Of a stretch of DNA of 64,000 nt, positions 21,308 to 48,612 are shown in pieces. Under the pieces are notes generated by a model. It was not told the origin of the DNA, searched no databases, and saw only the letters and a list, made by a program, of their open reading frames with translations. Every line of letters begins with the position of its first letter. Within the stretch, counting starts at the first letter, position 1. The stretch spans positions 16,740,001 to 16,804,000 of the forward strand of contig NC_135256.1 in assembly GCF_964204865.1 (NCBI RefSeq). The letters run 5' to 3'. Source of the stretch: Styela clava (Eukaryota). A program made the position numbers and the translations under genes.

Positions 21308-22816
21308 TCATAATAAGCCTTGTCTTTTCAGGTCCTCGTATGTCTTTTTTGAGACAACATTTCCAGCAGAGTCTTCATATTCCTCTTCTTGGTCTGGATT
21401 CCATCTCTCTGCATTTTTCATTTCTTTAATTTTTGACCACAACGCCATCGCATCTTCAATTTTTGTAACATTGGCAAAATGGGCAGTGTTAGGAATACCA
21501 AGGCAACGCATCCCATGTGCATGACGCCATTCAGCAAAATGTCGTTGAAATGCCTTTGGTCCTCTGTAAGTTTGATTTCCGCAAATCTCACAGCTGTAGT
21601 TGATATTAAGACCATGGAGTTTATAAAGCCAGTAAGGGATCGGTTTGCCATCCCAGCCAAGAGGAAGATTCTTGGGATTATAAATCACTTCATCCTCATC
21701 ATCTCCTGAATCACTATCAGACATAACATCATCCTCATCTTCATCACGCTCTGTATCAGTACGTGCTTGTCGACGTTGTACATTATCCCTTGTGGCAGCC
21801 CTTTGTTCACTAACAAGCTCAACTAGGTGATATATTTGTGCCTCTACCATGGCAGTTTCTTTATTGCGTTGAGATGTTAAATCCTTCTTTCCAGCTTTAA
21901 TTTTACTTTTAGAATACAATGATGTTTCAATTTCATCCATCGTTTTTCCTTTCGTGCTGAACAATCTTTCAGCTCTTTGCTCTAAAGTTCCACCACACTT
22001 CAGACTCAATGCCATCAGCGCAGACTTCAACCTATCAAGACCTAATGATGCAAGTTCTTCTGCTGATGTGAAAGCACTTAGATCAAGATGAGCTCCAGAA
22101 TGAGCCATCGCACTTCCAGCCTCTTTACCCCAGCCAGGAAATTCATTTGTTTCCCATTGCAATTCAAACTTTTTCAAAACCTCATCATGCTCGACATTCA
22201 AGTCGAGTAAAGGTTTAATGCGTTCAACAAACGATACAAGATACTGCAATAAACCATCAATGTAGTCATGATATTGAGTATTTTTCCTATCTCGTGGAAT
22301 TTCAAACAAGCGATCAAATGCATCTAAATATCTAACATAAGTTAGTTTTTCAATGCCTTTTATGTTAATATAACGCAAGTGTGATTCATGTAAATCTAAA
22401 AAGCGACCATAGGACTCTTCATCAGTAAATTCAACAAGTATTGTTGCTTCATCGCTTGCATTTTCTCTCGCTTGATTCAACTCTTCAAATTCCATAGACA
22501 TGGGAACAAACACTTCATTTGGATGTTTTTTGTGAAAATCTTTGATTTCCCGTAACCGTTTATAAAACTCACCAAATTCATTTGGACCCGCAATTGCTTG
22601 TATTTCAGCTTTTCTTAAACCGTCCTTGTCTTCGTACAGCTCCTGTAATCTAACTGAATTGTCCATAACACGATCTAGCAGATGCCTCATTCTGTGGTCT
22701 GAGTTGATTTGTTCACGAACCGCTGATTTCTTATGCATGCTTTCCTTTGTCATAGCATCATATAAACGCTCTTTTTCTTCATGCAGCCTACGCTGTTGTT
22801 CTAACGTGGTCTCCAT
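21308..22816 (-). CDS. SF3A3: Splicing factor 3A subunit 3 (SF3a60/PRP9), intronless, 502 aa
   Basis: [18 protein letters not shown] matches the known SF3A3 N-terminus, so the true start is 22816 rather than 22897. Contains [46 protein letters not shown]1-type zinc finger [24 protein letters not shown] and C-terminal [12 protein letters not shown]. Confidence 0.97.
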
Positions 22817-23360
22817 CGCAGATAACGAAAAACCAGGACCATATAAATCAGCAACAGCGAACGTCCCGATAGGTATAACGTTACACAAACACAGCAAGCC
22901 AGTCGAATTCGAAAATCTGCTGCTAGCTTCGCAGAGTGAACTGAAGGGTCGTAGTGCTTTTCAATATGAGTAGTTTGTTAGTGATGCCAGATTTTTCGTG
23001 TTATATTTGTTTCCATTTATATTATGGCGTGAATTATCAAACAATAACCGTTGAACGAATTTACATTCATTCGTTAATATTTTAAATAAGTTTCTACTTA
23101 ACAATAAAATTTAAAATTAAATGTTTGCTTGAAAATTGCATAATAATGTGAATGTCGAATCATACAGTTATACTGCCACTTTCGGCAGTATTGTACAGAT
23201 GATTGGTGATCCAGGTATAGGTAATTTTAAACCTTATCTCGTAACGAAAAGTGGGCATTATAAAGACTTCAATTGCCTCTATTTTATTCACAGTTTTACA
23301 TATGTACTTGTTTCCATGCCAGATATATATCTAAAACCACTGAATTCTATTGGGCTATAT

Positions 23361-25029: not shown

Positions 25030-27828
25030 CTAACGGTACGTTGGAGGAGGAACAGGTGGCCGTGTTTTATCTTGAACATAAGCATCGTTTGCTCTTGCTT
25101 CACCTGATCCAGCGTTGGGACGATGCGGTACGTTGCTTTTGTTGCCTCTAAATAAATATGTAATTCTGTAAAAAATATTAGTGAAGTCCAATGTTTTTAA
25201 TTGCTTCGAACGATAAAGGCTTAAAAAATATTCATATAGGTTTCAGTATTATTTATGACATTTTTACCTTTTCCAGGTATTAAACTTGTCTGAAATATTG
25301 TTTTTCTCACGAAAGATAACAAATCCAAGTAGAGCTAACAATAGCAATACAAGAATCACGATAGCCGCAGTGGATCCAGCGCTATTAGAAGAAGCTGTAA
25401 TAGAAAAATATATTTTTGTTTTGAATGTAGGCATACTATACCAATGGTTTTTAATTGGTTACTTTAACCTCGGTTGCTTTATTCTGTTGAGTTTGGATTT
25501 GGACAATATTAGCCTATACAAAATATCACCATTACTTGGTACACTTTCATCAGCTGAATTGGTAATGAAGTCTCTTTCGCTGTTGGCTGAAAAATATAAA
25601 TTAGTAGAAGTTGTTTAATATGGGAATAAATGAAATCGCACCGCAATCATGCCACGTATGACATTTAAAGCTTAAACATGAAATTTCAACCAAGAACAAA
25701 ACATATTCACGTACCACACAGTTGATTTCTGCAGTAGTCCTTTTCTCCACACTTGGAGCATGCAGTTCCTTTTTCAAACACGGACATCATTTTACCAGAC
25801 ATATATACATTTCCCCTGTATGAAACGTAGGAGTTAGTTAGTTTATGGTCAAAAGCAAGAGTGGTTAGTTGGGCCATACCTTTGAAAAATGATCGATATT
25901 AATTTTGGAATATATTGATCGATTTTGAGGTTTATAACAAAAATGATTTTTTTCCCTAAAAGTCAGGAAAAACTCGATGCAGAACTTTTTAAGTTGTTAC
26001 AGAATAGCAATCAGTACACAGCTGATCTCAGAAGGCAACATATTGTTTTATTAGATGTTTTGCATTGAAAATGTTTTACACTTCTCACAAAAAATTATAT
26101 TCTTGTGGATATCTAGCATTGAGAATAGTGAAACTTGTCCATCTTTAACAAAAATATGAACATTTAATTTACACATAAGATAAAGATGCTCATGTTACAA
26201 TATACCCATTAAGCGAGCGACTGGCTTACTGTGCAAATTACTGGAATGTATAACTTCACAGCTGAAGCAAATGAATCTGTCATTTAACCATTTAACTATT
26301 TGGTAACAAAACTTACGCGGTCGCATAATTGCACAAAAACATAGTGCCAGATCCCCAGTCTACTCCAGATAAAGTTTTGCATGAAACCATTGCACATCCG
26401 ACTTTGAACGTCTTGGCCCAGACAACCTATTGAAATAGGATATACAATAATTAAGTGCTGGAATAAGAACCACGTATTTTTGTATGACAGTCCATTTTCA
26501 AGTACGTAATTCAAAAGTTATAATGATGTGAACGTATTAGTTGGCTAACGCTAATCTCCGAAAAATAATGGTGGAGCAATCATTTTCACGTGTTGCGTAG
26601 CCTGTTCTATTTCCAAAGTGGATGTGTACCCAATTTAGTCATGTCTGATTCGTCTCAAATGGTGACTTCATCTATATGAGTCAAAGCGAATTTTAGGATT
26701 CCGTTATCCGTAATACGTAATGCATTTGCATATCTTCCATTTTAAAGATGAATATAGCAACATTATTATCGCACCAAATATGCCTGGCGAGAGGACGACA
26801 ACGAGTAGTTATTCTTTTCTATTTGCAGTATTTTAATTCGAGAGTTTTTAATCACGTTACAATGTTTTCATACGATACCTGAGTGTAATGTCCGCACATT
26901 TTTCCTGATTGACAAGTTTTTGAGTTGTAATCAAAATAGCTAATTTCACTAAACCATGATTGCACTGAATTTTCTACGTTTTTTATTGTTCCACTTGAAG
27001 CATGTATGTTTTCACCGACGCTAAATGTATGCATTCCATTATTAGTGGAAATAAAATATATATATATAACGTAACTTTGGTAAAAAAAATAGCCATGTCG
27101 TACCTCCATCCTCGCGAATGTTTCCTATTTTTATTGTGACCAAAGTGACATTGTTTGCAATATTCCTGAGCCAAGTATGCAAGTTCACTGTCCCAAGTCT
27201 AAATATATATGAAATGTATTAACATAAATTATTTACACGTAAGATAAAATTAATGAATCCATAATATGTTTACATATTTATAAACAGTACGAGCCAGTTA
27301 CATTATATCATGGATCAATTAATCAATGATTATTTATACAGTAGTCATTTTCATAATATAAATCACGGTTTCTCGAATTCCTCTCCACGGCATATTTCTT
27401 CCCATACCATATATCTCATGTTGGAGGATCCGCTCGATCGCCTTAATTCGTTGTGACGATTTAAAATTGTCATCTTTGCGGTATCATTCAATGGAATAAT
27501 TGTAGGCCCTGCGCCGCGTTTGACCTAAACGAAGGAAAATATGACTTCAGTAATGTATTTATCAGAAAGAACATATATTATTATTAATTAAATGGTGTTT
27601 ACTATGTATATATATACATAAAAGCGTGTTATATTTTTTTTTATCAAAGCATGGTTCTTTGATAAGATAGACTAGTCCGCACCTGAGTAAAGCTTTACCG
27701 ACAAGACTGTTACATGTATATATGCATTTTCTGGCGAATTTCATCCAAAATTAGTTTTAACTTACCCTTAGTGCCGACAACAAGGCGACTAATTGAAGGA
27801 TAATTATTGGTAACAGCCACTTCGCCAT
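25030..27828 (-). CDS. Transmembrane CAP/SCP (GLIPR1/PI16-like) protein A, ~307 aa
   Basis: Exons 27766-27828 (signal peptide MAKWLLPIIILQLVALLSALR), 27408-27524 (HNELRR..SNMRYM), 27104-27198 (WDSELA..FGH), 26879-27020 (GENI..WFSE..CGHYTQ), 26317-26426 (VVWAKTFKVGCA..CNY), 25715-25815 (GN..CSKC..C..LC hinge), 25536-25586, 25268-25394 (TM AAIVILVLLLLALLGFVIF), 25030-25147 (tail ...KTRPPVPPPTYR*). All in phase. Confidence 0.88.
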
Positions 27829-28559
27829 TTTTCCTTTAGTATGCACTGAGCCCTACTCTCACATATAAGTAGCATAAATGCGAAGAATTTCATCCATCCA
27901 TAGGTTTTAGCTTGAATGCAAACGAAAAATCATATTATGAACCGACAATCGGAATATATATATACCATGTTTGGGCAATGATACTTATGTGTCAGTAAAT
28001 GCTTACTATGACTATGAACTCATGTGACTGGCTTTCATATAATATATTGCAAACTAAACTTTTTGAAGCTTCGCAAAGCAAATTTCGGCTCTCATCTCCT
28101 TAATAAAGCAAAGTCCCTGGTCTCAAAGCATTCCCAGATAAACTAAGACTCCGATGTTATCCCTGGAACGTTATACACGATGTCATTAAGCCGCACAATT
28201 AGACTAAGTGAAAGCAAGCACTCAATATTTATGCATTCCATTGTGCTGCTCCATTTTGGTGACGTACATCCGCAATAGCCGGGTTTTTATAAGGAAGTAG
28301 ATCTATTGGGTGGCCTTGCTTGATTGTATATATACTTACCAATTGTAAATACTCATTGTTTTAAGTATAAGTCATAGTTGTTCAATAACATCAGTTGTCA
28401 AGTTTATCAAAACAGTCAAAAGGTTGAGAAAGTACTGTGACGTGAACGGGCTGTTGATTTAAAATAGTGCAAGGTGTCACATAGCAGCCATTTCCGGTTA
28501 TTTTGCGATCTTGAATAGGATCAATATTGAAGTGTGGGACATGCGATTGTCAATGGCAG

Positions 28560-29430
28560 TTTTTTTGGGGGGCTAAACACACAACTGTTCAGGATGCTTG
28601 AGTACATCATAACACAGACATCATAACACTATAGGAGGCATGCAGTACAGAGAGTACAGCAAGAGAGGGGGGCATAATGACTTATGAATGTCATATTACA
28701 TCCTCTTTTGTTCAAAGAAATAGCAATAATATTTAGACTTTAAAATTCAACACTAATTCACGTTAAAGCAATTTCAATTGAAATAATCACATCTCATTTA
28801 CAGCAATTTGCCATCAATCAGCAAAGCTACAAAATGCAATATTTACTTCACAAAATCACTAGAGCAATATTTTGGATCTCGCCTTATTCTCTTTCCACTT
28901 CTATTAAAAGTCATACTGGGCACAAAATAAGAATTATCATTAACAATATTATCCTGACGACGTATTTCATCATTTGAATCAGACTCATTAGAATAATCGA
29001 CATCATCTTCTGCCCAAGAAAAGTAAGATTCATTCGCTTTAAGAATATGTCCACGATTGCGACTCTATATTATTCCATCAGACTCAACATCTTAATATCT
29101 TGGTAAATAATGACTATGGCATATAACACCTTTCTTGTCATATTTTTCTTTTTGTAATCTGATTTCTGACTGGTGTTGAATTAGGTAGCAATTTTGAAGA
29201 CTTATCAAAATATTTCTTCTGTGCAAGAATTGATAATGCACTTCTTCTGGATTTCTCATTCCAGGATTCAATAAATTCTCTGATATAGGTATGTCAACTT
29301 TTGTTTGACATGATAACAAGCGTTGTGCAGAAGAACCAAGTATTTTATCTCTATGCACATTTGGAATGTTGAACGAAGCAAGGTAAGTATCAGACGAATG
29401 TGTACAAATGTGCATGCCGAAACTCATACG
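28560..29430 (-). mobile_element. Decayed Gypsy LTR retrotransposon 3' fragment (integrase C-terminus, PPT, start of 3' LTR)
   Basis: YLASFNIPNVHRDKILGSSAQRLLSCQTKVDIPISENLLNP, LQKEKYDK and PRY*DVESDGIIY/SRNRGHIL resemble Gypsy integrase C-terminal motifs (LGSPAQRLM, QKxYYD, PRSY..YRRNRxHL). Purine tract AAAAGAGGA abuts TGTAAT at 28700. Confidence 0.6.
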
Positions 29431-29630
29431 CTAACAACGTACGTCAACATGACATTTAATAATTGTGATTCTTTACCTGGAACATTTCGATGATCAAAAT
29501 ACATTGACAAAGCATTGTTAGATGCAATTATGTATCAAACCCACTAACAACAGGTTCGCTCATTTCAAAAAGTGCATGTAGGTCTATGTCACTGGATAAG
29601 CTACATGAAAATGGCACTATTAACATAAAT

Positions 29631-29832
29631 CGGTACTCCCGTGGTATGTGGACCAAGATGGCGGATACCGGAACGTAGTATGTGTACCAGGTAAGGGTTA
29701 GGCCATAGTTTCAGGTACAAATACTACGGGAGTCACTTGGCTAGTCCCCGAACTCGTGAAAGAACTAAATAGGGAAATTGGAATAAAATCATGGCCCAAC
29801 CCTAACCTGGTACTCGTACCACGGGAGTACCC
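29631..29832. mobile_element. MITE family C with 6-bp TSD and TTAGGG-like subterminal motifs
   Basis: TIR GGTACTCCCGTGGTA / TACCACGGGAGTACC. TSD ATAAAT on both sides. Internal AGGGTTAGG and CCAACCCTAACC. Confidence 0.8.
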
Positions 29833-30409
29833 ATAAATCCAATACCTAATATCTGATATTACACCAAAAAGCCAAATATAAGGCTAGGTGGGGTACATTT
29901 CACCTTGCCGCGGTTGTATAATATCTGAAACCAAAAACAAAAACGGGTTTCCGCGAATCCTCTTAATCTCACCACTGGGTGTGGTCCTAATTGCCATCCG
30001 AATGGCCTCTAAAATTTATTTCTGCTTGAGCATATTTGTGATGTTTTCTAAACATTAGTTAATATTCATGATATTCCTGATAATCTTGAATAAATTATTC
30101 TATGTAAACTACAAAATTGCCACACCTACGCCCAAACCAACTATCATTCGCTGAAGCGTTGCTGTAACGAGCTATCTGAAAGCACAGTTGAATCCAACCA
30201 GCAGTTTCTCTTTTTTTTTATTCCCAGAAATGATGCAGTTTTTCTTGCCACACAATTTATAATTTAAAATAAAAAAATGAGAATATACCATTTATACATA
30301 CTAGTTAAAGTGCCGTATACGAGTATGTAGAAGATATATTGAAAATAAAACTCAAAATCTATATCTATTATTCTATTATTAAACACGATTACATTAAACA
30401 CCATCGTTC

Positions 30410-30668
30410 TCATTGGACACGTTTAGTGGACATAACGATCGTTTCAATATTTTGTTGTTGTTCTTGTTGTTATTTTCCGTCATCATTATAAAGTCGCTTT
30501 TCTCTTCGAATACTGGACAAATTGCTTTGAAATTTTCAGTGAGTAAAGATTATATATTTCACTAAAAGGCTATTACTTTTATTTATCGTTTTTTGTGTGC
30601 TATGACGCCAACAAACTTTGACACTATGTGGCGCAACGTGTTCATATATTTGAGCATAGCTCTCTTGT
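30410..30668 (+). repeat. Dispersed repeat family B (HINE-like), fullest copy
   Basis: TTGGACACG 5' end, (TTG/TTC)n tract and 3' GAGCATAGCTCTCTTGTTT hairpin/T-tail. Homologous to 3130-3335 and 8595-8806. Confidence 0.6.
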
Positions 30669-30822
30669 TTACAAAATAGGATACGGTGACAAAAAGCAGA
30701 TGGCGAGCTATTTATGATATCCTCCACGGTGATGCAACTAAGGACTTATAATCAGTTATTTGTGTATGGGCTAAGCATTATTCAAGTTACTCTTCGGACA
30801 CTTTTTTGACCAGTGCCTGTTT

Positions 30823-33800
30823 TTATAGGCGCCTGGGCGGCGGAGGAAGAACAGGTGGTGATGCTTTGGGCGGCGTTGCCGTTCCTTTTATATACGCGCG
30901 TCTCGGAGTCGTTGGTGCACTTGAACATCGCCTTTCTTCGTCTTTCAATAACTAGAATATAAGTTATACAGTGTTCAATTAGGAACTACAAATATATTTG
31001 AAATAAGACGGAAGTATTATTGGATGAAGGGAGAGATAAACAAAGAAAGAATAATTAATAAAAATCCATTGTGATATTTTACCTCCAATGGCGTACTGAT
31101 GTCAGCAGCTGTCAGCTTGGAAATACCATGTAAATTTACGCCAGTCAATGAATGCTTCGGAGTATTGTACGCGCTTGTTGCTGGTGTGCTCGCGTTACTG
31201 TAAAATGGTCGCTAGGTGAATACTCAGAAAAACATTAGTATCTGATTTTTGTAATGTCTTGTTTTCAATGTAGTTTTGGTCATGCATGAAAGTAGGCAGA
31301 CACAGAGAAAGTTAAAAAATTTCCCCGGGCATTTAAATCTTTAAACCTAATGCAAACAGGTATCATAACGAGGGCGTAAGTAATTTCGTTTAAAATATGG
31401 GTACGTTGGAAAATTGCGTGAGATCCTATACCTGAACCTAACCATATGGTTGACTGCTGTTGATATTCCAAAATTGTTTGAAAATCTCATCCTTCTTCGA
31501 AATAGAAACAAAGTGACAAGAATAACAATAATAATGCAAAGTATTATTATCACGGCTATGAATGCGCCTTGGCTGCCTTTACCTTAAAATCAAACAAGAA
31601 TAATCGCTTCAACGAAAGTTTTCTGATTTGCAATGGAACCATGTCATAACAATATATATATAGCTGAGAGGTGGTCAAATTTGAAATATTTAAGATGGAC
31701 AATTTATTTTTGTATAATTTATATTTTTCCGGTACTCACTCCAACAAAATTATGCCTGTTGTAATGTTTTTAGTGAATTGACTAAGTTAAAGAAATAAAG
31801 TTACCACTTACAATTACATCTTATACGCAATCGCTACAAACTATCTAAATATTTAATAAAATATAGAAAATTAAATCATACTTTGGCATTCTTTATTTTT
31901 CGTTTCAAAAACGAAATCTCTGGCACTGTTTGCTGTTTAATTCAACAGTTGATATTTTGTTGAATTTTCCCATATATTTTATGCACGATCAGCGGATGAT
32001 GAATGGAATATAAAAATGAAGTGAGTATAAAAAGAAATAAAACCTATCAAAACTAAATATTTTATTTACATCTGTCAGTGCAAGTAAACATTTTGATAAA
32101 AGTCGTTATAATTAACGAATATAACAAAAATAGTGCGTTTGAAACGCTTTTGTTGACAAGTTATAGCAATATGAAGCTCTACTGTTTTTATACACTGACT
32201 ACATATTTTTAGACATGTCAGAATCACTAATCGCCTTATTCGTGGTCTATTATTTCTATACAAAAATTATTTCGTATAGTCACGCCAATAGCTGTTGCAG
32301 GAATGAACCAAGTTTTACCACATAAGGAATCCCGACAGTAATCGTCTTCATTGCACTTAGTACAGTGTTTTCCTTCTTCAAATAATGGAAGCAACTTCCG
32401 GCCTGGTAGTGAAACGATATTTCCACTGAAAAGATATTGTACTCAATATAGGGTAATTGTGACTGGTTTATTTATTGTCCAATTTTGGCTTTTGTAGATC
32501 AGTGGGTTTCATCTCAGCCCCCCTTCCCCCATCTCCCTTATAAACACTACGATATGTTTTTTTATCCAAATTGGCGGGAATTAAATCGACTATGTAGTAT
32601 GTATACGATGTAATCGATGAAAACGAAATCGAGGGAAAACGAAAGAAAAGGAAACAAAATCAAATCAGGAGCCACAGCCCAAATCAAAAACATTTAAGAG
32701 TGAAGGAAAATTTCTCTAATTCGCTGTGATAAACACTTGTATTTGTGAAAAGAACACTAGGTATAATTCAATTCTTAAATAGAACTTTCGAACATATCAA
32801 GACCGAGTCATCTAAAAGGCGATCACATTCAAGCAAGCAGCTCCTATATTGTACACAACTTATTACTCTGCCCAGGTAATGTACAAGTTTTTCGGAAGGT
32901 AACTTCAGACACTTCATATTTAGTTAATCTGAACTCGGCATTTTGGCACTTCCAAAATCACGACTTTTTTCAATATGTACAATATTATTGTTAATCTGCC
33001 TCATCAGCCATCTATGAAATTTTTATCTGATATCGCTGTCTTGATGGGTAGGCGATATTGTGTAATAAAATATAACTACACTAAAATGTCGACGGATCCT
33101 GACTTACGCTGGTGCATAATTGCATACAAATAGTGATCCGCTGTACCTCTGTCCAATACCAGTTATATCAACACATGAACATATCGCACATCCTACTTTG
33201 AACGTAGTTGCCCACATCACCTGGTAATAATAAATGGATTGGTAGAAGGTGATTGCAAACAACTTTGAATATACAATGATGTTTCGGTCCCAGCAGCTAA
33301 CTTTTGAAAAGTATAAATTTGAAAGTTCTCGTTTTATGTTCAATCAGTTGTAAAACATAATTTGGGATTATTTTATGCTTATCTAATTAGATAACGTAAA
33401 TTGTGAGCGTTTTATATTCTATTTGGTGGTGGAATCTTCTACTGTTACGCTATAGAAAAATATCAGAATTATTTCCCCGAATTATATTTTTAGGAATGTA
33501 ACACAAACACGACACAAAATAAAAATATTTCAATTTTAAAATATTGTTAGCAAGGGCTGCCAAAATTCTCTTTGTTAGATTATTAATTAAAAATAAATTG
33601 CCAGTAGACACAAAATATGAGACACCAAACTTGTTAAAGGTTAGAAAAATATCTGATAACAACCTGCGTATAATGGCCGCAGGTCATTCCGGGTTGACAC
33701 GTCCTTGAGCCGTGAGAAAAATATTTTAATTCATCATACCAAGCTTGTATCGCTTTTGTAGTATCGCTTCCCGTCATTTTGCCACTGGTTGCATATATGT

Positions 33801-35878
33801 TTTCTCCAACACTGTAGTTATTCAATAAATGATTATTTGCCAACTTTTGTTATTTATAATATGGACGAGAATATCGTTAATGTATGAACACATAACAGAC
33901 ACTGAATAAAAATGAAGTTTATCGCACTATGCAGTATCAACATTTATGCACAATGACCTATTATCCGTCAGGTACGGTGTGGAAGCTGTTTGAACAAAGA
34001 AACCGGACTAATTTACAAACAAAACAATAATTTGACATCATTGACGACATATGAATAATTACAAACAATTAGATTTAAATTTCGAACATATAGGACGAAT
34101 TATTTTCACCTATGAACCAATAAAATCAATTTTTTTTTTTTTAAATTCACAGTTATATTAATAAAACAATTAGCACTTGTCGAGTTGGTGATTCATAGCG
34201 ATTTATTCCGCGTCATTGCTTCCATAACATTCATAGTTTGAAAGTGGGGAGTTAAATCTATGTCTAATAAGTTTTACAGAAGTTCCTATTTACAAAAGTT
34301 AGCCATGCTGACTTTGTCAGCAAGTCTAGCACAGTTTTGGGGAAAGAAGTTGAATGAAAGAGATTGAAATAGGTAACGTATGTTTACGGAGAGAGATATA
34401 CTAAATCCGCACCTCCAACGTGAATGTTTACGATTTTTATTGTGATCAAAATTGCATTTCTTTGAATGTTCTTCTGCAATAGTCGCAAGTTCGCTGTCCC
34501 AGGTCTGCAATGAAAAACTCCTCTCGTAATTTGCAATTTTGTTGTAAAATTCTGATTAAATCCACTTAGAAAGTTATGATGATGGTGATTATATTGCAAA
34601 TTCAACAACGATATATCAAAGCCATGTCCGTTTAAAATAGGCTTTATATGGTCCGGTATTACCCGGACATGTCCGGATATTTGCCGTTTAAGTTATCGTC
34701 CTGGAGTAATACGAAATACACTGAATTGCCCAGAATTTTTGCGTCGCCTGAAATGTATGACAAGCGTTGCTGCTCCAATTTTTAATTTACCACCTCAATT
34801 AATAGATGAAGATTGGTGATACTGATAATACATGGGCGGCAAATGTTTAAAACCATGAAAAGTCGGATTTCATTTCTTTTACGTTCTCGATATTGCTACA
34901 GGTAAGACTTTATTTATGTCTTATTACCCTCAATGTACCGAACCCTAAGTGACAAACCCAATGATTGAAGTTCGTGTTGACATTTTAAGTATATTGATTG
35001 CGAATAGTGGTAATTCCTGTATTCTGCATCTATCTATATATATATATATCCACTCGAAATAACAAATTTAGTGTCGATGTTATAATAAAAATTCTCCTGT
35101 GTTATTCTATCGGGAATATGGCAACTTCAAAATTTAGTTCAACAATTCAAAATAACACGTCCATTTCTTTTGTACAATTATAGTGTTTTTATTGCTTACC
35201 ATAAATCTCATGTTGGAGGCCCCACCCAGTCGTCTCAGATCATTGTGATGCCGCACGATTTCCATTTTATCATGGTCGGTTAAAGGAATAATTGTCGGTC
35301 CTGTGCCTCTACGCTGCTGTTAAAAGAATTTGCTATTTTCAGTTACTAACTTTGTCCTTTTATGGTGGATACATATCAGTGACTGTATTTTCACAGCCTT
35401 GTTGAAGAAATGAAGTATATGCGGCTCTTTAAAACTACGTCAGCATCGCAGTTTTATTTTGAGAACTTTGTATAAAATGATTCAATGCATTACAAATATC
35501 AGCTAGTTATTGTTAACCACCCTAAATCACGCAAGATAACTGTTGGATGTTTGCCCGGCCCTTTGCCCCATAGGAATTCATTCCATATTTACCATTGCCA
35601 AATTTAAGATTTTTTTTTTTAGGGTATTTTCGAGGATTGGCGCTTATAAACTGGTTTACATCTCATTTAAATCATTGGACCTCCCACTGATAGCTAATTT
35701 TAACATACGGCATCACAGATTTTTTCGAGACTAATTTTTGCTTACTACACATAAAATAAAATTACACGGAAGAAAAATGATCATAAAGATATTTGATTCA
35801 TACCTGAATTCGTGAACGCAACCACAAATTTACAAATACCCAGCAAAACCACAAAAACGAGCTATTGTTTACCATCAT
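30823..35878 (-). CDS. Transmembrane CAP/SCP protein B, ~365 aa
   Basis: Exons 35804-35878, 35200-35316, 34413-34504, 33664-33811, 33108-33220, 32319-32425, 31882-31932, 31432-31582 (TM AFIAVIIILCIIIVILVTLFLF+RRR), 31083-31197, 30823-30951 (tail ...PPKASPPVLPPPPRRL*). Same ectodomain intron positions and phases as paralog A. CAP motifs HNDLRR, GENIY, WYDE, GHYTQVMW, VGC, CNYAP. Exon 1 signal peptide is weak. Confidence 0.85.
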
Positions 35879-38096
35879 GCTTTACAATCCGTCTGAGGGG
35901 AAAAAGGTATCGGATCGGCGACTAATATTTAATTGTTATTTCGCTGTGACATCATGATGATTAGCCAATATTATTGTAATATACCGGAAAGTTTCTCACG
36001 CCATTGATTCTGGTTGCTATGAACCTATGTTACGTCATAAAGGTCTGGCGTTGGGCTCTTCTTATGTATTGCGAATTAAATGACCAGAAGAATAAAATAC
36101 TCACCCTTTCTGCTGCTGAATAGTCCGAAATTAGTAATGTAGTTATTATTAATATCGGATGGTAGACGGGGGCCATATTGTTTACATCTATTTAATTCGT
36201 TTAGCTATATAATCAAATCAAAGCGCATTTGCATTATTTTCAAATTCTGTAAGTAAAATTATCAAATTTAAACCTCACATCTATAAATGTTTGTTTTGCT
36301 CTATACTAGTTAGTACGATGGTTCGTGTGATATCTATCTTAGATGAAAAAGGCTTAAAATGCGAGAACCGACGCTCCTCAGGCTTGCCAGAATTTGCACC
36401 GTTGGCGATTGAACGAAAGCAATGCCTAATAATAGATGTTCAGTTCGTTCAAAATCCTACTTAAATTGAGATCAATCCTCGGAATCTTGCCTTACCTATG
36501 CCTGCACTGACTAATATTAAAACTTCACTGACTGACAAATCCAAGTTCACTCCTGTATTTGATCAGGCAGCAGTTTTTGCTCGTGTTGCTGATTTGATAG
36601 AAGTATATTTGTTAAATCAGGGGAAATGCATATGGTATCGTGACATGCATTCGTTGAACGAATACAGCATCCCCTTTCTATTGGTTTGGGTGACGTAACA
36701 TCCTATTTCAAAAGTAATTATAAAACGTAATATGTTCCATCGCGGGCCATATATGTATTGTGATAAATTGATGTTGATCGATGTTTGTATTGAACTTCAA
36801 ATATCTGATATCATTTCCTGTTTTTCAACGAGTACCTTATCAAAAATTTCCACTGAAATGTCATAGACCGAGAATGAAAAGTATATTTTGACAATGAATC
36901 ATATCACAATCGACCTTAATCAAACATATATTTGATAAAATGTTCACTTACAAATAGCTTTCCTCGTACCATAGAATGCTACGGACGAGGTTTAAACGAA
37001 AGGGGCACACTGTTACTTAATATCAAGTAAATATATGAAATATTACCCAATCACAAATATTTAAAACTGTATAACTATTTACAGGTTGTGCAAACAATGA
37101 ATACTGGGTAATCAGTATGAGATAAATGAAAATTCACTTGACATTGAGCAAATATAATAAATATCAACAGCAGTACTTGATTCCATGATAACATGGAACT
37201 TTTTTGACAAACTTATTATTCTATAGCTGGGGATTTTCCATTACAGAACAAAGTATGAACCGTTAAAAGCATGACAATAAATAGGGCTGCATAGACTCTA
37301 GAATTTGAACTCTTGGGTTTATTTACAAGCAGATATTAACGATATAAAATGAAATTAGTCGTTCGCAGCTCCAGCAGTCGGCGATATAATTCTTTGCAAT
37401 CCATGAAATCATAAAAAGTAATTAATCTCCTAGTCAAGTGATTATTTCAAGACCGAAAAATAAAATTGAGACTTTCAAATGGGAATTTATGCACTCATTT
37501 AATACACCATTTTCTTCTCAGTTTTTTAAAATATCCAATATCCGCATGTTGTCAAATTAATGTTTGATATTATTCTGATTAATACTGAACTTTTACTATA
37601 AAATAAGACACAATAATCGACGTGGAATGTTAATCATTAAGGTTATTCAAACATAACTTCATATCGACAAATTATTTTTTTATTTATATGTCTATCGACG
37701 TAACCTCCACTTGTCTCATTGTACGTGCTGACAATGCAGCTTGCTGTTTTTTTACCAACCACATTCAAGTTCAAATTCGAAATGAACAAATATCTTATTT
37801 AAACCTAGAGCAAATATGTAAGTGAGGTCAAGTTCATGGGGCTTGCGAAACTATAGTTCACCAAACGACAGTCTTTAACATAACAAGGCAATCTTTTTTC
37901 CACCAGGTCATTAGTCATAAACTCCACTTCAAATTTTTTTGGTTATGTGTAACAACAACAATATGTTTCCTACAAGTTTTACTCGTGACGTGGAAAGAGA
38001 GAATCGATCGTCTTCTGCTTTCAATGCAAAACAACTACCAACAACGTTCGGTAGGAATAACAGCCTATCGAACAGATAATTCATTGCATTCAGAAA

Positions 38097-41000
38097 TCAT
38101 TTTCTTTCCAACACAGGAGCAGGTATGGAAGGGGGAGGAGATCTTGGTGCAGTGTGACTTGGTTTTGGATAACTTGTCCTACGCACTGGTACTGTCAGTG
38201 ATTTTGGTCTTTCCGTCAATCTTACTTGAACCTAAACAGCAAAAGTTTCATAGAAATTTTGGTGATCGTTTCATTTTCACTTTCATATTACTTAAAACTT
38301 GAAGCCGGGGTGCAAGCCGGACGCGAAATATTGCTTGTTTATGACAAGATGCGATGCGATGGCAAGATTTTGAAAGTTTTGTCTGGAACTTTAAAATACA
38401 TGCAATTATTCCCTCAATTATCATAACCAGCATTTTTCGATCATAGCAATAATGCATTCATCGACAAACGGAGTAGGAGGCAAAATAAGCTTAGATTATG
38501 AGCACGCTTTCTACTTGTCAGAAGTATCTACCTACCTTGGCAGTCACTTCTGCATTTGCAGTTAAAACAGATTCCGATTGTTGTTTGGGTAGTAGCGGTA
38601 TGAAATTTTCTACGCTATCATATATTGGTTTGTCATCAGCAGATAGGTGATTTTCGGGGCTTGCAACTCCATTACTAGTACGAGAGCTGAGGGAATAAAA
38701 TGTAATTCGAGTAATAAATCAAAAATATCAGAAACAATGTACAACAGATACAATAAGCCAGTGTGAGGTAACCGACGAGATATTCGATTTAAATACTGGG
38801 TAAGCCATATACACATATGGAAACATCATGTACTTGTTATTTTTGCAGTGCATTTCGAGTGAGTATTCGTCCGACTTCCAAAGTGTGTCTTCAAACCCAA
38901 AGTTAAGTGTTCTTAACGAATATATACTAATACTGTAATACTGTACAACATGTACATGAGGCTTACCTTTTCCGAAGCCTAGTAGGTGATTTTATTTTGC
39001 AGCAGTCACTTCCTATTAAACGTCGTTTACGAAGTCGTTGACATATAATATATAATGTGAGTGTAATGACGATGGAAGATAAAATAGCAATTGCAATTAT
39101 GAATCCAATGACGCGACTTTCTGTGAAAGAAAATATTATACAGATATTGAAGGATTGAAAGCAAAGAATTTCGAGAGAGAGAGAGTTGACAACTTTCCAA
39201 TAATATTATGATTGCGACCAAAAGAACTCAAGTGAGTTATTCATACCGTATTTATAAAAATGATTGGCTAAACAGTTCACATTATAATTATTTATTTATT
39301 TCGTTTTAATTGAGTGTATGAGGGATTTATTGGTAGCTAGTGACTGGCTGATATTGTATGCAAGTAGATTGGATTGTTTTGGAGAATTGCGAGAACAATT
39401 TACGATAACCAATAACACCATACACGCACTCAAAAATGAATATCTCATATTCAATCTAAATATTTTTAAGTTTGACAACGATTTACAGCTCAATAGTCAC
39501 ATAATAGAACCGTCGAAAAAGCTTTACCAACAGTTGCTACATCTGAACATGTTCAAAGTCTCATTTATAGACGAATCCACTCTAGATTGGTCTAAATGTT
39601 GGCTCTAATTCGGCTGAATATTAAAATGCTGAAGCATTTTGCATGGAATTAATAAAAGATTACCTGCGTACTCCACAGGCATCTCAATGAAATCTCTTTC
39701 GCTATTCGCTGAAATATATAAATGAAATGAAGTTTTGAATCTCATTATTTCTATACGAGAGTCGTGCATATACAACAATAGGACAAATTTTGAGAAAAAC
39801 GGTGCTGTAGAGCTTGGAGCCATCCCAGTCCAAACATTAAGGTCATTTTAAAAACATCTGCCAACTGCTGATTGGCAAAAATTTCGACTTCTATTCCGGA
39901 TCCACGTTCCGAGTTGAAAGAATTCTTGATTTACTCCGGCAGCTAACTTCGATAAAACCAAATTCTTCCATTATTGCTGTCGAAAATTCAAATTTTGACT
40001 AACACCATTGGAAGCCTGAAATTTTGACTTCTGTGTGTTTGAAAATAAAACCCCGACCTCATCAACTTCATAATATATTCAGCTTTATTTGAAGTAGATT
40101 CTTCATTTTACTATCGCTATGAAATCATTAATCGTGAAATTTTATGTATATAATTTTTTTTAGGTTTGGAACTATGAAACAGTCCTTACCTTGCGGGGAG
40201 ACCTAACAACTTTTATAAATTGTGTCAACAATATAAAAAATAGATCTTCATTGCAAATAGAATAAATTGCCATTATTTTTTTCAGCTGAGAAATATAACA
40301 ACGGAATTTACCACACATTGATTTTCTACAATAGTCATCTTTATCACATTTTGAACACGCATTCCCAACTTCGTAAACTGATACCAATTTCCCATCTTCA
40401 CCGGTGACGTTCCCCCTGATGAATATAAAAGACTTTATTTTGATGAAATTAATTCCCCTAAACAAATCAAAATGTAGATACACTCACGCTGTTGCATAGT
40501 AGCAGATGAAAAGTAAACTATTTCGATATTGAAGCTCTGATATAAAAGTGCATTTAGTTAAAGCGCATCCCACTTTAAAGCTTTCTGCCCACACAACCTT
40601 AAAAAAAAGAAATCAATTGATAAAGTGTATTTTATTAACTCAAACTCACTGTATTTTATATATATATATATACCATGTAAAGGTTTCTACTGGAGAATTA
40701 GAATGAATAAAAAAAAGATAATTTTCAGGTCACTAACGTAAATGTTTTCTTTGGAAAGAGGTGTTCGTTTGATCAAAAAATTACACACAAAACAGACAAC
40801 TGTAGCATGGTATTTGTATTTAATCTGTATTTTCTGATATGCAATGGGTTTAAATGAAAGATAAAACTTTAGAAATTCGGTTGAAGTAATATCATTCATT
40901 CATTCCTGGAAAATCGGTGATTTACTAGTAGATTTTCTTGCAAAATACAACAACGCTCTTTTTTAGCCTCATGTGTCCTTATTGTCAATATATCACAATC

Positions 41001-44000
41001 TCAATTAAATGTGAATCCACACAAAGTTCATCCGCATGTACTGTAATGTTGAATGGCTTATTTACAATATGATACTTATATTGGTTCAATTAATGGCGAA
41101 AATATGACAACCCCAGCTTTTGCAATTTCCCCTTTTCTTGGAGAATACTCGCATACAAAAAAATAGGAATAAAGCAACTTCACTCACGGCATTCCAAAGA
41201 CGTACGGTATTGAAATAGCGTTTGTTAACATTTTATGACGGGCTTATTCTAATACTAATATAAAATTCCAGGGCGCTCCAGAAGTATGTGTACCAAGATG
41301 GAGGTAACTAACTTTGTTCGACTACTTTACATCAAGTTGTGTAAAGGGACGGAAGCCTATGGGCAGGATGTATATTCACTTAGCCAACAAATACAGTCCC
41401 CGAACTCGTAATATAACTAAAATAAGGAAAATCGAAATAAAATTATTGCCTAACCCTAACCTGGTACACATACTACGGGAATACCAATTCCAGATCATAC
41501 CACATTAATTGGAGGTTGTATCTCGGGTATATAGTTGGTTTACCTGGGTATAATGTCCGCAAACCTTCTTTGAAAGGCAAGTACGTGAATAATAATTAAA
41601 ATTTGAGTTTTCACTGAACCATTTCCGAATGGCCATGGGAGGTTTGAAAACGGATGATGATGCTTTAGATGCAAACATGTTCTCCCCAATACTGGAAATG
41701 AAAAAATGACAAATTATACATATATCTTGGCATGTACATCAACATTTCAATTAAATTTATAGACATTTGAACACGTTAAAAGAACAAATTCTTACATATA
41801 CAATGCACTTGATCTGCAGTGCAGTGTCATGTGTACTTCCGCACAACGCCCGCTTATATGGCAGCGATATAATATGACCTCTACGGAGGAGGTCATACGA
41901 ATTGCAATTCGGACCATAATACATCTACCCCACTCCTAACCAACTCGAACTACCCATAGCACTTATTTTGCTATTTCACTAAGATATGTGTCAAAAATAG
42001 CGTATGCCATCATAGAAACTCCTTTGCATTCTTCCAGTTCCTATGTACCATGATTAGTAGCCTAAGTCTTCATTTTGCTTTGATTTAAACGTGACAAAGT
42101 GGTACAAAAAGTAGTTCACACTTTCTGAGATTAAATATTTTTTCTAAAGACGCAAAGGGAAAATAGTAAAGATGAGTTACTGCAATCATAGCAAGTTACC
42201 AACCTAGAATATTTGGAATGTTTCTTATATTTATTACGACGATATCGACATCTTCTTCCGTATACTTCCGCATTCCATGCCAATTCACCATCCCATGTCT
42301 AGAAATTAAATATCAAGATAGACGAGGAAACACAAAATACCTCGCTTGACTATGGTCAATTTTCAATCTCGACTTAACGAATATAAAGAGTTGTATATTA
42401 CGGGTATAATAAACAAAAATGTCCCTAATATAATGAGAGCATAGGGGACCAGAACTTTACAATATCAAAGTTGAAGCATAAATGTAACTTACCATATATC
42501 GCATGTTGGATGAGTGTCTTGTTCGTCTCATCATATTATGAAGTTTAACGATATCATATTTTTGTGTTTCAGATAAAGGAATTAGTTCATAGTGTGTCTT
42601 TGATTGAGCCTATGATAGATCATAACAAAAAATTCGATTCAATGTTTGAATATTTTAAATATTTTATATTCAAAAAAACTTGGAGAAGTTTTAATTTCTA
42701 GAAGTATATGAAAGTTATTGGGATCTTCGGATAACGCAATAACATCTTCCTCATGGATGGAATATTCGAGAAGAATATTGATTGTGGTGGTGAATGTCTC
42801 CACATCTACTGGTGGGATTCAGGGGGTTCAGATCTCACATGTGTACGCGCGACCACTTTCTCGCAATGTCGTGATATCAGCGAACCCGTTCTTGTTTTTT
42901 ACATGACGACTGCAACACATGAGATATTTGACGTTTTAAAAATTTGATATTAGAATATATATAAAACGTGTAATGTTCGTGAGGCTTACGTAGCGACCTA
43001 CATACATTTTTCTGAAATGAGGAACCCGTTCTTAGTGACTTTGATACATTTCGCCAAGACGGGTCGGCAGGTACACGGATAGTAGGTTTATCCAATCGAT
43101 ACTATTCCGAGTTGGACGCCATTCAATTTGAAAGAAGAATTTATTGTTAAAACATATCAAAATGCGATTTATACCCTATTCCCACCCTTTCACGCCCGAA
43201 CCTGGGACATGAACGTACCATAAACTGACTATCGCACAAATCGTCGTTGTGCCGTACCTCTTTGTCTTGTGTATTATACTAGAGTTTTATATTTAATGTC
43301 TGTTGTCCTACTATTACACAGTCGTCCTAAACTGCAGTTGTACTTGTTAGGGATGCATATCGCACATCCGTGTCTTATTTTTGGGGCAAATAAACATACA
43401 TACATACAAGAATGAAAGACGAAAAGACGATGTGAAACAAAGGCGTAATCAACGTGTGCTATCTTAGATCAAGATTTGTTCAGACCACATAGGAGATCTT
43501 TGTTCAAGAATAATTTATACTTGTGGACTTTTCTCGTTTCGAATTGGACGAAATAAGAAAGCGAAAATTTTAAATTTGAATTTTGAGGTACGTCAGACGA
43601 ATAAACGAATAAAATGATTATTGCATTAACGTTGATTTACCCTCCAAGACAATACAGTTATTCATGTTGCAAAGTTATTTTGTACGTTGGCATAGACTGC
43701 GGATCGTTACCGTACAAGCCTCGTATGTCGCTTAACGATCTCTCACGATGCTTTTACTGCCAATGAACGAGACAACCGCAAGGGGCGATCGATTTTCTTC
43801 AAATAAGCGACAACTCTCTCAATCGATTACTCCCCAGCGAGAAAGTGTCCTTTGTCTTGCATGAACGAAGTTCAATGACTTTAGCTTTAGCCCACGCTTG
43901 AATTAAATGTCGTCACATATGGACTAATGCTTTGAATAAATACGCCGAAATACTAGTAGGTTGCTACATTGTTATAGCAGTTTTAATCAAATTAGTTCAA

Positions 44001-44588
44001 GCTCACGATCGAGATTTCGATCAATCTTATGGAAATGTATAAATTTAAATATTACGCATATAGAAATGACACGTTTTTGAATACATTATAGTTTTTTGAA
44101 TTGCAAAAATCTTATATATTCATTTGACAAACACAGACAGTCCCCAAACTCGTAATATAACCTAAATAGGGAAAATCGGAATAAAATTATGGCCTAACCC
44201 TAACCTGGTACATATACTACAGGAGTACCTTATTAACTAACATCCGTGAAAGACATTCCAGCAAAATCAAAAATTTACATGACCTGCCCGTCATTACAAA
44301 CTGCAACTATTACTAGCCTGTTGCGCTCTACAATCCATTCAATGGTAAGGAGAATTTCTTAAAATTGCTATATGTATATATATGCAAGGAATTGTACTTA
44401 AACCTACTCATAGAAGTGAAAAAAACTCACTCAAAGGTGAAGTTACTCGCCATGATATTATAAACAATGCTTCGTACCTTATCAGTGAGTTTTTATGGAA
44501 ATCGAAATATTTTATTGACAATTCTTACCTTTAGAGTTCCACAGATGCATATCATACAGAACATGGATGACAAAATGGGATTAGTCAT
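38097..44588 (-). CDS. Transmembrane CAP/SCP protein C, ~372 aa
   Basis: Exons 44529-44588, 42493-42609, 42204-42298, 41544-41691, 40488-40597, 40312-40415, 39664-39708, 38967-39120 (TM VIGFIIAIAILSSIVITLTLYIIC), 38536-38686 (KPIYDSV), 38097-38231 (...APRSPPPSIPAPVLERK*). Same exon phases as B. Confidence 0.85.
41271..41486. mobile_element. MITE family C, copy 2
   Basis: Shares GTATGTGTACCAAGATGG, AGTCCCCGAACTCGT and CCTAACCCTAACCTGGTAC with 29631-29832. Flanked by ATTCCA at 41265-41270 and 41487-41492. Confidence 0.75.
43150..43408 (+). mobile_element. Probable LINE 3' end with AATAAA-(CATA)n tail
   Basis: Ends GGGGCAAATAAACATACATACATACA, a microsatellite tail typical of CR1/L2-group elements. 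The 5' boundary is uncertain. Confidence 0.4.
44139..44230. mobile_element. MITE family C, 3' half only
   Basis: AGTCCCCAAACTCGTAAT...TGGCCTAACCCTAACCTGGTACATATACTACAGGAGTACC. Confidence 0.7.
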
Positions 44589-47818: not shown

Positions 47819-48612
47819 ACGCATACGCATCAATCATCAAAATGGCCAATCTGATAAGCATAGTTTCGAAGGCGACTTATGCAATCCAATTTCAAAAAAA
47901 CGATGGAAGTCTATTACTTAAACATTTCGATAAATTTGAATGGAAAAGTCCATGGATATCTCACGGCTAGATTTATGAACTCTCGTTAACAGATGCAATA
48001 GTCCGCTAGTGCTCGGCTATTTTACGTGCTATCTATCATTTCAATATTCGTTGTACAACAATAACAGAGCAGAAGGTTTAATTCACTATGTCTGAATATC
48101 TTAAAAAGAGACGTATTGTATTCTTGCCAAATAAATGAAGCACTAAATAGTTTGCCGCATACCATATTCTTAACTATGTAATCATGAGCCTGTTTCCAGT
48201 TATAAAGTGAGGGGTAGTTGGTTACGTACCATTCAGGCTTTTTTCCCCTAACAGTCTAACACTCGACGAATGATGGGAATTTCATTTGAATTTATCAAAA
48301 TATTCAACTAGAATAGACTTCCATCATTTCTCAAACATGAATTATATAAAATAGATTCGAAACTAAGCTTATCAGTACCAGGTGAGGATTCATTTATTGG
48401 TAATATTCTCTTGTTGGTTGAGAGTAGACTAAGGTTTGCGAAATAAAACCATACAATGTTTTGGGTGCCAAGTTTTACAATACAATATAAAGACGAAGAT
48501 ATCGGAATCAAATTAGGGATTGGCCTAGCTTCGGATGTGGACTCGGGATCCGATTATAACACAGAATAAAAAAGGATCAACCCGAAGAGTAAGTTTATCA
48601 ATAACAAAAGAT

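What the first reader, a model, noticed from the sequence alone, without database searches (positions are those of the whole stretch)
25030..44588. Tandem cluster of three type I transmembrane CAP-domain proteins with signalling-type cytoplasmic tails
Seen: three same-strand paralogs with matching ectodomain exon phases, each with signal peptide, CAP domain, Cys hinge, ANSxRDF stalk, TM helix and a 50-120 aa tail. Tail A ends KTRPPVPPPTYR (KxxPxxP and PPxY), B ends PPVLPPPPRR (PxxPxR), and C has IYDSV plus PxxP. Established: most CAP/CRISP/PR-1 proteins are secreted, GPI-anchored or have negligible tails (GLIPR1); the ascidian sperm protein urabin is a GPI-anchored CAP protein that binds the vitelline coat. 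SH3, WW and SH2 domains bind these motif classes. Inference: a diversifying family of CAP-ectodomain receptors coupled to adaptor, Nedd4 or actin signalling, for example in gamete or immune recognition.
Basis: partly seen in the sequence, partly recalled or inferred. Interest (0 to 1): 0.7.

Follow-up and report, generated by a model that had tools for sequence, protein, structure and literature searches.

The report
Sea-squirt CAP receptors with phospho-ladder tails
Three real, spliced sea-squirt genes encode GLIPR1-like surface proteins with a predicted membrane anchor and long inner tails; one tail keeps a likely phosphorylation ladder across all three sea-squirt orders, which suggests a regulated adhesion receptor whose ligand and tissue are untested.

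Summary
Three minus-strand CAP-domain genes (A 307, B 364, C 372 aa) have GT-AG introns and matching phases. They are identical to Styela clava RefSeq proteins. Transcript contigs from three studies splice 8 of 8 A introns, 9 of 9 B introns and the 5 C introns laid, joining ectodomain, TM and tail. They belong to a probably ascidian clade (98/95) that includes Ciona and Clavelina proteins, apart from vertebrate GLIPR1 and GPI-type ascidian CAPs. What is conserved is different. B, Ciona and Clavelina share an S/T-every-fourth-residue ladder ending in [ST]P[KR] (GSK3-type consensus), LHGxS, SAPx[ST]PxR and a terminal Pro-rich stretch. C shares a 30-residue C-terminal motif with its relative and has lost a CAP tetrad His. 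Alleles differ little and mostly synonymously, so this is no hypervariable recognition locus. Best reading: a likely kinase-regulated adhesion or co-receptor family, duplicated and specialised in Styela's lineage. Tissue, ligand, phosphorylation and partners are untested. TM-anchored CAPs and CAP clusters are known, so this is a new variant of a known kind.

The parts
25030..27828 (-). Gene A, 9 exons, 307 aa (27828-27766, 27524-27408, 27198-27104, 27020-26879, 26426-26317, 25815-25715, 25586-25536, 25394-25268, 25147-25030); = XP_039250607.2
   Evidence: (8 of 8 introns joined in X1, X2, X6; none in the DNA-like run X10)
25312..25362 (-). Gene A predicted TM helix (aa 238-254)
   Evidence: hydropathy 3.33; coordinates
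25033..25068 (-). Gene A terminal Pro-rich end with KxxPxxP and PPxY; not seen at this place in the closest tail relative
30823..36176 (-). Gene B, 10 exons, 364 aa (36176-36105, 35316-35200, 34504-34413, 33811-33664, 33220-33108, 32425-32319, 31932-31882, 31582-31432, 31197-31083, 30951-30823); = XP_039250502.2; keeps the ancestral-type tail
   Evidence: (9 of 9 introns joined)
31500..31562 (-). Gene B predicted TM helix (aa 241-261)
   Evidence: hydropathy 3.69; AlphaFold helix 236-270
31149..31436 (-). B tail S/T ladder (aa 283-300, across intron 8): Ser/Thr at every fourth residue ending in T-P-K; GSK3-type consensus; conserved in Ciona and Clavelina
31116..31136 (-). B tail NLHGISK motif (aa 305-311), identical in Clavelina, LHGxS in Ciona; partner unknown
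30898..30921 (-). B tail SAPx[ST]PxR module (aa 333-340), second primed-site consensus; SAPTTP identical in Ciona
30826..30873 (-). B terminal Pro-rich stretch with PxxPxR
38097..44588 (-). Gene C, 10 exons, 372 aa (44588-44529, 42609-42493, 42298-42204, 41691-41544, 40597-40488, 40415-40312, 39708-39664, 39120-38967, 38686-38536, 38231-38097); = XP_039250396.2; basic ectodomain (pI 9.4), first tetrad His replaced by Arg
   Evidence: (introns 5-9 joined; intron 4 by a loose end carrying exon-4 letters)
39044..39109 (-). Gene C predicted TM helix (aa 231-252)
   Evidence: hydropathy 2.68; coordinates
38611..38625 (-). C tail IYDSV; not conserved in the closest relative
38100..38183 (-). C terminal motif R-x-S-x-P..P-x-H-x-APRSPPP-x-x-PAPVL (aa 345-372), conserved in unnamed relative P0252

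Best explanation
These are three spliced paralogs of a GLIPR1-like, predicted single-pass surface protein family, probably confined to ascidians, that likely works as a kinase-regulated adhesion or co-receptor. Shown: gene structure, splicing through TM and tail, the clade, and tail conservation. Predicted: signal peptide, an R-x-K/R-R convertase site just after it (A, B; not C), a GLIPR1-type CAP+hinge ectodomain, one TM helix and a disordered tail. Inferred mechanism: the ectodomain binds an extracellular protein or glycan partner, as urabin and GLIPR1L1 do. In the ancestral tail (B, Ciona, Clavelina) a proline-directed kinase would prime the [ST]-P-[KR] site, and GSK3 would then step back along the S/T-x3-S/T ladder. 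That charge switch would set whether the terminal Pro-rich stretch engages SH3/WW-type adaptors for cytoskeletal coupling or endocytosis. After duplication in the stolidobranch lineage (inferred; node 95/78) A lost the ladder and kept a short Pro-rich end. C gained its own C-terminal motif and a basic ectodomain that lacks a metal-binding His, and so likely binds an anionic surface.
For: Splicing of TM and tail exons in runs from three studies, with single contigs spanning CAP, TM and tail exons for A and C, and hinge-to-tail for B. Eight TM-bearing proteins form one clade from ectodomain sequence alone, 98/95, among 46 rows; its named members span Stolidobranchia, Phlebobranchia and Aplousobranchia. 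Tail alignment scores: B-Clavelina 122, B-Ciona 80, Clavelina-Ciona 126, each 0 of 1000 shuffles; still 102, 61, 104 (0 of 1000) after dropping the last 25 Pro-rich residues. C-P0252 123 and A-P0131 61, each 0 of 2000. The ladder pattern is present in 3 of 3 ancestral-type tails and 0 of 4 others; shuffles give it 0.015-0.075%. Identical runs NLHGISK (0 of 3000), SAPTTP (10 of 3000), APRSPPP (0 of 3000). The GSK3 consensus and relay are as described in PMC7226814 (passages). AlphaFold: ectodomain mostly pLDDT above 90, helix 236-270, tail below 50 over 273-324 and 329-346; best fold match human GLIPR1 3q2r, E 1.2e-17, rmsd 2.1. [quoted passage not shown]
Against: No ligand, tissue, localisation, phosphorylation or binding partner was measured. 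The ladder pattern was written after seeing the three tails, so its shuffle figures are not a fair p-value, and three related sequences are few. S/T-P-rich disordered tails often match kinase consensus without being substrates (own knowledge). A and C lack the ladder, so one mechanism does not cover all three. Tail conservation fits sorting or turnover as well as signalling. The ectodomain tree joins A with B (98/88), while A's tail resembles P0131, so orthology inside the clade is unsettled. Deleting mouse Glipr1l1-3 together left males fertile (PMC12917576, passages), so relatives can be dispensable. The runs are 'RNA by guess' with no tissue on record.
Confidence: 0.5

Rival explanations
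1. Tethered ectodomain with a trafficking tail: the proteins act outside the cell like GLIPR1 or urabin, and the tail motifs only sort them (to a granule, acrosome or cilium) or time their degradation; no signal passes inward.
For: The tails have no catalytic domain and are predicted disordered. Primed S/T ladders also act as degrons (PMC7226814 mentions GSK3-dependent degradation). Tails differ widely among paralogs while ectodomains stay 47-55% identical. P0124 has only a 15-aa tail, if complete.
Against: About 100 residues with four separate conserved motifs across three orders is more than a sorting signal usually needs (own knowledge).
Confidence: 0.3
2. One reading: a diversifying set of gamete or immune recognition receptors wired to Nedd4 (PPxY), SH2 (YDSV) and SH3 partners.
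For: The motifs exist. Urabin binds the vitelline coat (PMC9265791, passages). A Ciona CAP gene is reported as LPS-induced (title and one sentence in PMC3639994). The family expanded in Styela's lineage.
Against: PPxY and YDSV are not positionally conserved and such motifs are common in shuffles (2.9% and 37%). Allelic variation is low and mostly synonymous. The clade is separate from GPI-type ascidian CAPs. Whether the LPS-induced Ciona gene is a member could not be checked.
Confidence: 0.12
3. The hydrophobic segment is not used as a lasting anchor: the main products are shed or soluble ectodomains, and the tails matter little.
For: Contigs keeping B intron 6 or 7 appear in several runs and would stop before the TM (243 or 236 aa). 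Shedding of GLIPR1 has been suggested (PMC2880257, passage).
Against: Fully spliced TM+tail forms are present in all four runs laid. The tails are conserved. A long charged tail after the hydrophobic segment rules out a GPI signal (own knowledge). Other B introns also appear in retained contigs, so these may be pre-mRNA.
Confidence: 0.08

Closest known systems
Vertebrate GLIPR1 subfamily (GLIPR1, GLIPR1L1, GLIPR1L2)
   Same: Signal peptide + CAP + Cys hinge + C-terminal TM; best PDB match by sequence (3q2r, E 6.1e-55) and fold; clustered genes (PMC2880257); surface location shown for human GLIPR1.
   Different: Separate clade in the tree (vertebrate group 97/95). Of 98 proteins with a hydrophobic segment among 121 examined, 88 have tails under 20 aa. 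The longer vertebrate tails seen (mouse GLIPR1L2 record, 42 aa, Glu-rich; lamprey, 37 aa) lack the ladder and the Pro-rich end.
Urabin (CiUrabin, HrUrabin)
   Same: Ascidian cell-surface CAP/PR-1 protein.
   Different: Urabin is GPI-anchored, testis-specific and has no cytoplasmic tail (PMC9265791). No record named urabin came up in my searches, so it was not placed in the tree; GPI-type ascidian CAPs fall outside this clade.
Second tunicate TM-CAP group (Ciona XP_018667311 and three unnamed relatives)
   Same: CAP + hinge + TM + tail (55-68 aa in three of them), with an R-x-K/R-R site near the N-terminus.
   Different: Separate branch (98/94, with one long-branch unnamed row); basic-then-acidic tails. 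The two tails tested show no similarity to A, B or C.
Plant PR-1 receptor-like kinases (cacao)
   Same: CAP/PR-1 domain used as the ectodomain of a membrane receptor.
   Different: Those carry a kinase domain; these tails have only linear motifs. I saw only the title of Teixeira et al. 2013 in reference lists; the paper was not held.
GSK3 relay substrates (works-like comparison: LRP6 tail, CRMP2, beta-catenin; names recalled)
   Same: S/T-x3-S/T spacing with a C-terminal priming site, as in the consensus given in PMC7226814.
   Different: No homology; phosphorylation untested here; no PPPSPxS or DSGxxS in these tails (read).

Membership tests
CAP superfamily | CAP domain above Pfam cut-off and alpha-beta-alpha fold | tested here: met
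   PF00188 76.7, 74.7, 48.1 bits against cut-off 21.1; B model matches 3q2r, target TM-score 0.87
CAP superfamily | Tetrad of two His and two Glu lining the cavity (PMC10189770) | tested here: inconclusive
   By alignment, complete in A, B, Clavelina, Ciona, P0131 and P0124; C has Arg for the first His, and P0252 has lost both His and one Glu. Metal binding not tested.
CAP superfamily | Caveolin-binding motif of three aromatics for sterol binding | tested here: not met
   The loop has two aromatics in A and C, and B lacks the second; the third position is Cys (read)
GLIPR1 subfamily | Signal peptide + CAP + hinge + C-terminal TM, no CRISP ion-channel-regulator domain | tested here: met
   (no Crisp domain reported); signal peptide by hydropathy only
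GLIPR1 subfamily | Groups with vertebrate GLIPR1/GLIPR1L in a tree (orthology) | tested here: inconclusive
   Own clade 98/95, outside the vertebrate clade 97/95; deeper nodes weak (80-88) and the root is a midpoint; no one-clade test run
GLIPR1 subfamily | Cell-surface, glycosylated membrane protein | not testable with these tools
   N-x-S/T sites exist in the ectodomains of A and C; localisation needs experiment
CRISP | C-terminal ICR/ShKT-like domain after the hinge | tested here: not met
   No Crisp Pfam hit; the hinge is followed by stalk and TM. The RefSeq names 'CRISP2/3-like' are automatic labels.
Urabin | GPI-anchor signal at the C-terminus, no tail | tested here: not met
   53-120 residues follow the hydrophobic segment and are spliced in
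Urabin | Testis-specific, sperm surface, binds vitelline coat | not testable with these tools
   Runs carry no tissue record
Polymorphic allorecognition receptors | High allelic amino-acid diversity in the ectodomain | tested here: not met
   1/307, 4/323, 2/327 differences between two records; 7 non-synonymous of 20 variant codons in truncated tables; few individuals sampled
Primed GSK3 substrates | S/T-x-x-x-S/T series with a priming site, conserved | tested here: met
   B, Clavelina and Ciona tails; absent from A and P0131, one short match in C
Primed GSK3 substrates | Priming-dependent phosphorylation in cells | not testable with these tools
   Needs phosphoproteomics or a kinase assay

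The most novel reading that the evidence does not exclude
An undescribed, ascidian-wide class of animal CAP-domain receptors that signal inward: ligand binding at the CAP ectodomain is read out through a GSK3-type phospho-ladder and an LHGxS docking motif that gate SH3/WW adaptor binding, with Styela's three paralogs splitting this into a full receptor (B), a short-tailed modulator (A) and a metal-free polyanion-binding form (C). It would be the animal counterpart of plant PR-1 receptor kinases and a handle on what CAP domains bind.
Probability: 0.2. Interest if true: 0.7.

Novelty: new variant of a known kind. Interest (0 to 1): 0.42.

Why it matters
What CAP domains do at the molecular level is still open, and nearly all studied animal members are secreted, GPI-anchored or end just after a TM helix. 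A single-pass CAP protein with a 100-residue tail conserved across three ascidian orders gives an intracellular read-out (phosphorylation, adaptor recruitment) that could be used to find the extracellular ligand. One clear relative was found in Ciona, where knock-out and imaging are routine, so the test is cheap. If the tail only sorts the protein, the result is a modest addition to GLIPR1-family architecture.

Tried and rejected
1) Alternative first exon of B at 35878-35804 (RefSeq isoform X1, P0127): no cover in the four runs laid; I used 36176-36105, which is spliced in X1, X3 and X6. Lack of cover does not disprove the isoform. 2) Donor 25530 for A exon 7: rejected, contigs use 25536. 3) C introns 1-3 were not displayed as joints because repeats crowded the table (431 rows not shown); contig lengths and RefSeq identity fit the model. 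4) No listed run is on record as RNA and none gives a tissue, so expression site could not be tested; contig depths were not used to rank genes. 5) More paralogs beside the cluster: none in the window; genome searches found only these three at this place and B's tail exon once (lower bounds). 6) Tandem clustering as a surprise: rejected; CAP exon hits also cluster on contigs C1, C3, C9, C13, C17 and C18. 7) A 14-3-3 site at B's RRCSSAP: the basic residues are not kept in Ciona, so not claimed. 8) Literature: no paper held the six accession terms; searches for Ciona+GLIPR1, ascidian+CAP, CiCAP, urabin and Styela+CAP listed nothing on this family; subscription papers are mostly not held. Bonura 2010 (CiCAP) and Teixeira 2013 were not held, so I cannot exclude that CiCAP is a member. 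No supplements were read; Ciona proteomic or single-cell tables may list the ortholog. 9) Earlier scan findings: none. 10) The atlas search on B's tail returned no result. 11) The automatic TM screen missed P0252 and P0273, whose CAP motif deviates; I read them by eye. 12) No complex prediction was run, since no partner is known.
Full report
Observation. The window is ascidian DNA: the neighbouring SF3A3 gene has its best named relatives in Phallusia, Clavelina and Ciona, and the three CAP proteins are identical to Styela clava RefSeq records. From six-frame reading and a list of splice dinucleotides I built three minus-strand models with GT-AG introns and open frames. Exons 1-8 share end phases in A, B and C. 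A has one tail exon after the TM exon; B and C have two. Each protein reads: hydrophobic N-terminus, CAP domain, four-Cys hinge, AN-S-x-RD-F stalk, TM helix and a tail of 53, 103 or 120 residues. Pairwise identity over the ectodomain is 47-55%.

Splicing. Contigs of runs guessed to be RNA were laid on the locus. All 8 introns of A are skipped in one contig in each of X1, X2 and X6 (three studies) and in none from the DNA-like run X10; one donor moved to 25536. All 9 introns of B and the 5 introns of C inside the second stretch are skipped, and a loose end carries C exon 4 letters. In X8 one contig links B's hinge, stalk, TM and both tail exons; C's joints share one contig depth per run in X1, X6 and X8. 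Contigs that keep B intron 6 or 7 also exist and would end before the TM; they may be pre-mRNA.

Relatives. A profile of A, B, C and one unnamed relative found full-length matches in Clavelina lepadiformis (367 aa), Ciona intestinalis (409 aa) and unnamed Logan proteins of 272, 298 and 386 aa. A tree of CAP+hinge from 46 hand-picked rows puts these eight in one clade (98/95), with Ciona+Clavelina (100/99) beside the Styela and Logan proteins (95/78). C pairs with P0252 (97/95) and A with B (98/88). Vertebrate GLIPR1 (97/95), GPI-type and TSP1-bearing ascidian CAPs, and a second tunicate TM group lie outside; deeper nodes are weak. The three named species belong to three ascidian orders. The unnamed proteins are taken as ascidian only from their place in the tree.

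How unusual is the tail. Among 121 proteins and the locus, 98 have a hydrophobic segment after the CAP domain; 88 have tails under 20 residues and 10 have 40 or more (four records of this locus, three clade members, two of the second tunicate group, one mouse GLIPR1L2 record). Among 135 further representatives, 11 lacked the search motif, 36 had a TM and 6 had tails of 20 or more, including lamprey GLIPR1 and two large multidomain proteins. Long tails are therefore a minority but not unique.

What is conserved. B's tail aligns with the Clavelina and Ciona tails far above shuffles, also without the Pro-rich end. Four elements are shared: (i) F-S-N-x-x-T-P-x-x-S-x-x-x-[TS]-P-[KR], Ser/Thr at every fourth place; (ii) LHGxS; (iii) S-A-P-x-[TS]-P-x-R; (iv) a terminal Pro-rich stretch. 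Elements i and iii fit the primed GSK3 consensus, which can be read in series (PMC7226814, passages), and their last sites fit proline-directed kinases (own knowledge). The pattern was defined after seeing the sequences, so I rest on conservation across orders, not on the shuffle figure. C shares its last 30 or so residues with P0252 (score 123, 0 of 2000 shuffles) but nothing upstream (621 of 2000), so YDSV is not kept. A's tail resembles P0131 over its first 42 residues (0 of 2000), but P0131 ends before A's PPxY; it may be cut short, and it has a PPKY next to the membrane and an NPxY near its end. A's tail shows no clear similarity to B, Ciona or Clavelina (51, 135 and 455 of 1000 shuffles).

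Ectodomain. The AlphaFold model of B (93-row alignment) has a confident CAP+hinge, a helix over the TM and a low-confidence tail; human GLIPR1 is the best match by sequence and fold. The His/Glu tetrad (PMC10189770, passages) is complete in A and B; C has Arg for the first His and a net charge of +15, and P0252 has lost more of it. P0124 is equally basic with a full tetrad, so charge and tetrad loss are not tied. An R-x-K/R-R site follows the signal peptide in A, B, Clavelina, P0131 and P0124, but not in C, P0252 or Ciona.

Polymorphism. Two records per gene differ at 1 of 307, 4 of 323 and 2 of 327 residues. Of 20 variant codons taken from the displayed rows (238 and 46 further rows were hidden), 13 are synonymous and 7 are not; both variants in B's tail are synonymous. 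This is not the pattern of an allorecognition locus, though few individuals were seen.

Mechanism. Shown: gene structure, splicing, clade, tail conservation, low polymorphism. Predicted: topology, disorder, convertase site. Inferred: extracellular binding by the CAP domain, priming and GSK3 relay on the ladder, adaptor binding at the Pro-rich end, and division of labour after duplication.

Comparison and verdict. It works like GLIPR1 (a surface TM protein; PMC3757444, passages) with an added motif-bearing tail. It is not urabin, which is GPI-anchored (PMC9265791, passages), and not a CRISP. Clustered GLIPR1 genes are known in mammals (PMC2880257, passages), CAP exon hits cluster elsewhere in this genome, and CAP-ectodomain receptor kinases are reported in cacao (title only). 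Ten literature searches listed no description of this clade or its tail; subscription papers and supplements were not seen. The genes are annotated in RefSeq under automatic names. Verdict: real, a new variant of a known kind, interest 0.42.

Noticed in passing
window 51825-53208 (-): Intronless protein kinase ORF (PF00069, E 3.7e-39) followed, in another frame and overlapping it, by a ribonuclease 2-5A/KEN ORF (PF06479, E 4.7e-16): an IRE1/RNase L-like gene split by a frameshift near 52270-52390. Pseudogene, assembly error or real split not determined.
   Followed up: partly
window 21308-22882 (-): Intronless SF3A3/Prp9 gene, 502-aa product on record, about 2 kb downstream of gene A.
   Followed up: partly
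window 48605-51249: Head-to-tail duplication of 1324 bp at 99.8% identity; recent duplication or assembly artefact.
   Followed up: no
window 29743-29834, 41371-41488, 44115-44229: Three copies (82-87% alike) of a short repeat that is very abundant in DNA and RNA-like runs; two lie in introns of gene C. Likely a SINE or MITE.
   Followed up: no
window 31553-32348: Contigs retaining gene B introns 6 and 7 in several runs; translation would stop before the TM and give a soluble ectodomain of 243 or 236 aa.
   Followed up: partly
window 62561-63924 (-): Broken non-LTR retrotransposon reverse transcriptase pieces (RVT_1, E 3.3e-7).
   Followed up: no
window 6664-7922 (-): Exon-like ORFs with C-type-lectin-like wording by eye; no Pfam hit for the one exon tested.
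   Followed up: no
window 36892-38096 (-): Gene C has a 3' UTR of about 1.2 kb ending about 640 bp upstream of gene B's transcript start, with many differences between individuals.
   Followed up: no
proteins P0286, P0172, P0189, P0273: A second tunicate-type group of CAP+TM proteins with basic-then-acidic tails, including Ciona XP_018667311; separate branch in the tree.
   Followed up: partly
G000 C1:4.58-4.62 Mb, C3:13.28-13.31 Mb, C9:14.04-14.08 Mb, C13:5.08-5.10 Mb, C17:12.10-12.13 Mb, C18:12.87-12.89 Mb: Further clusters of CAP-domain exon hits in the same genome; anchors and tails not examined.
   Followed up: no
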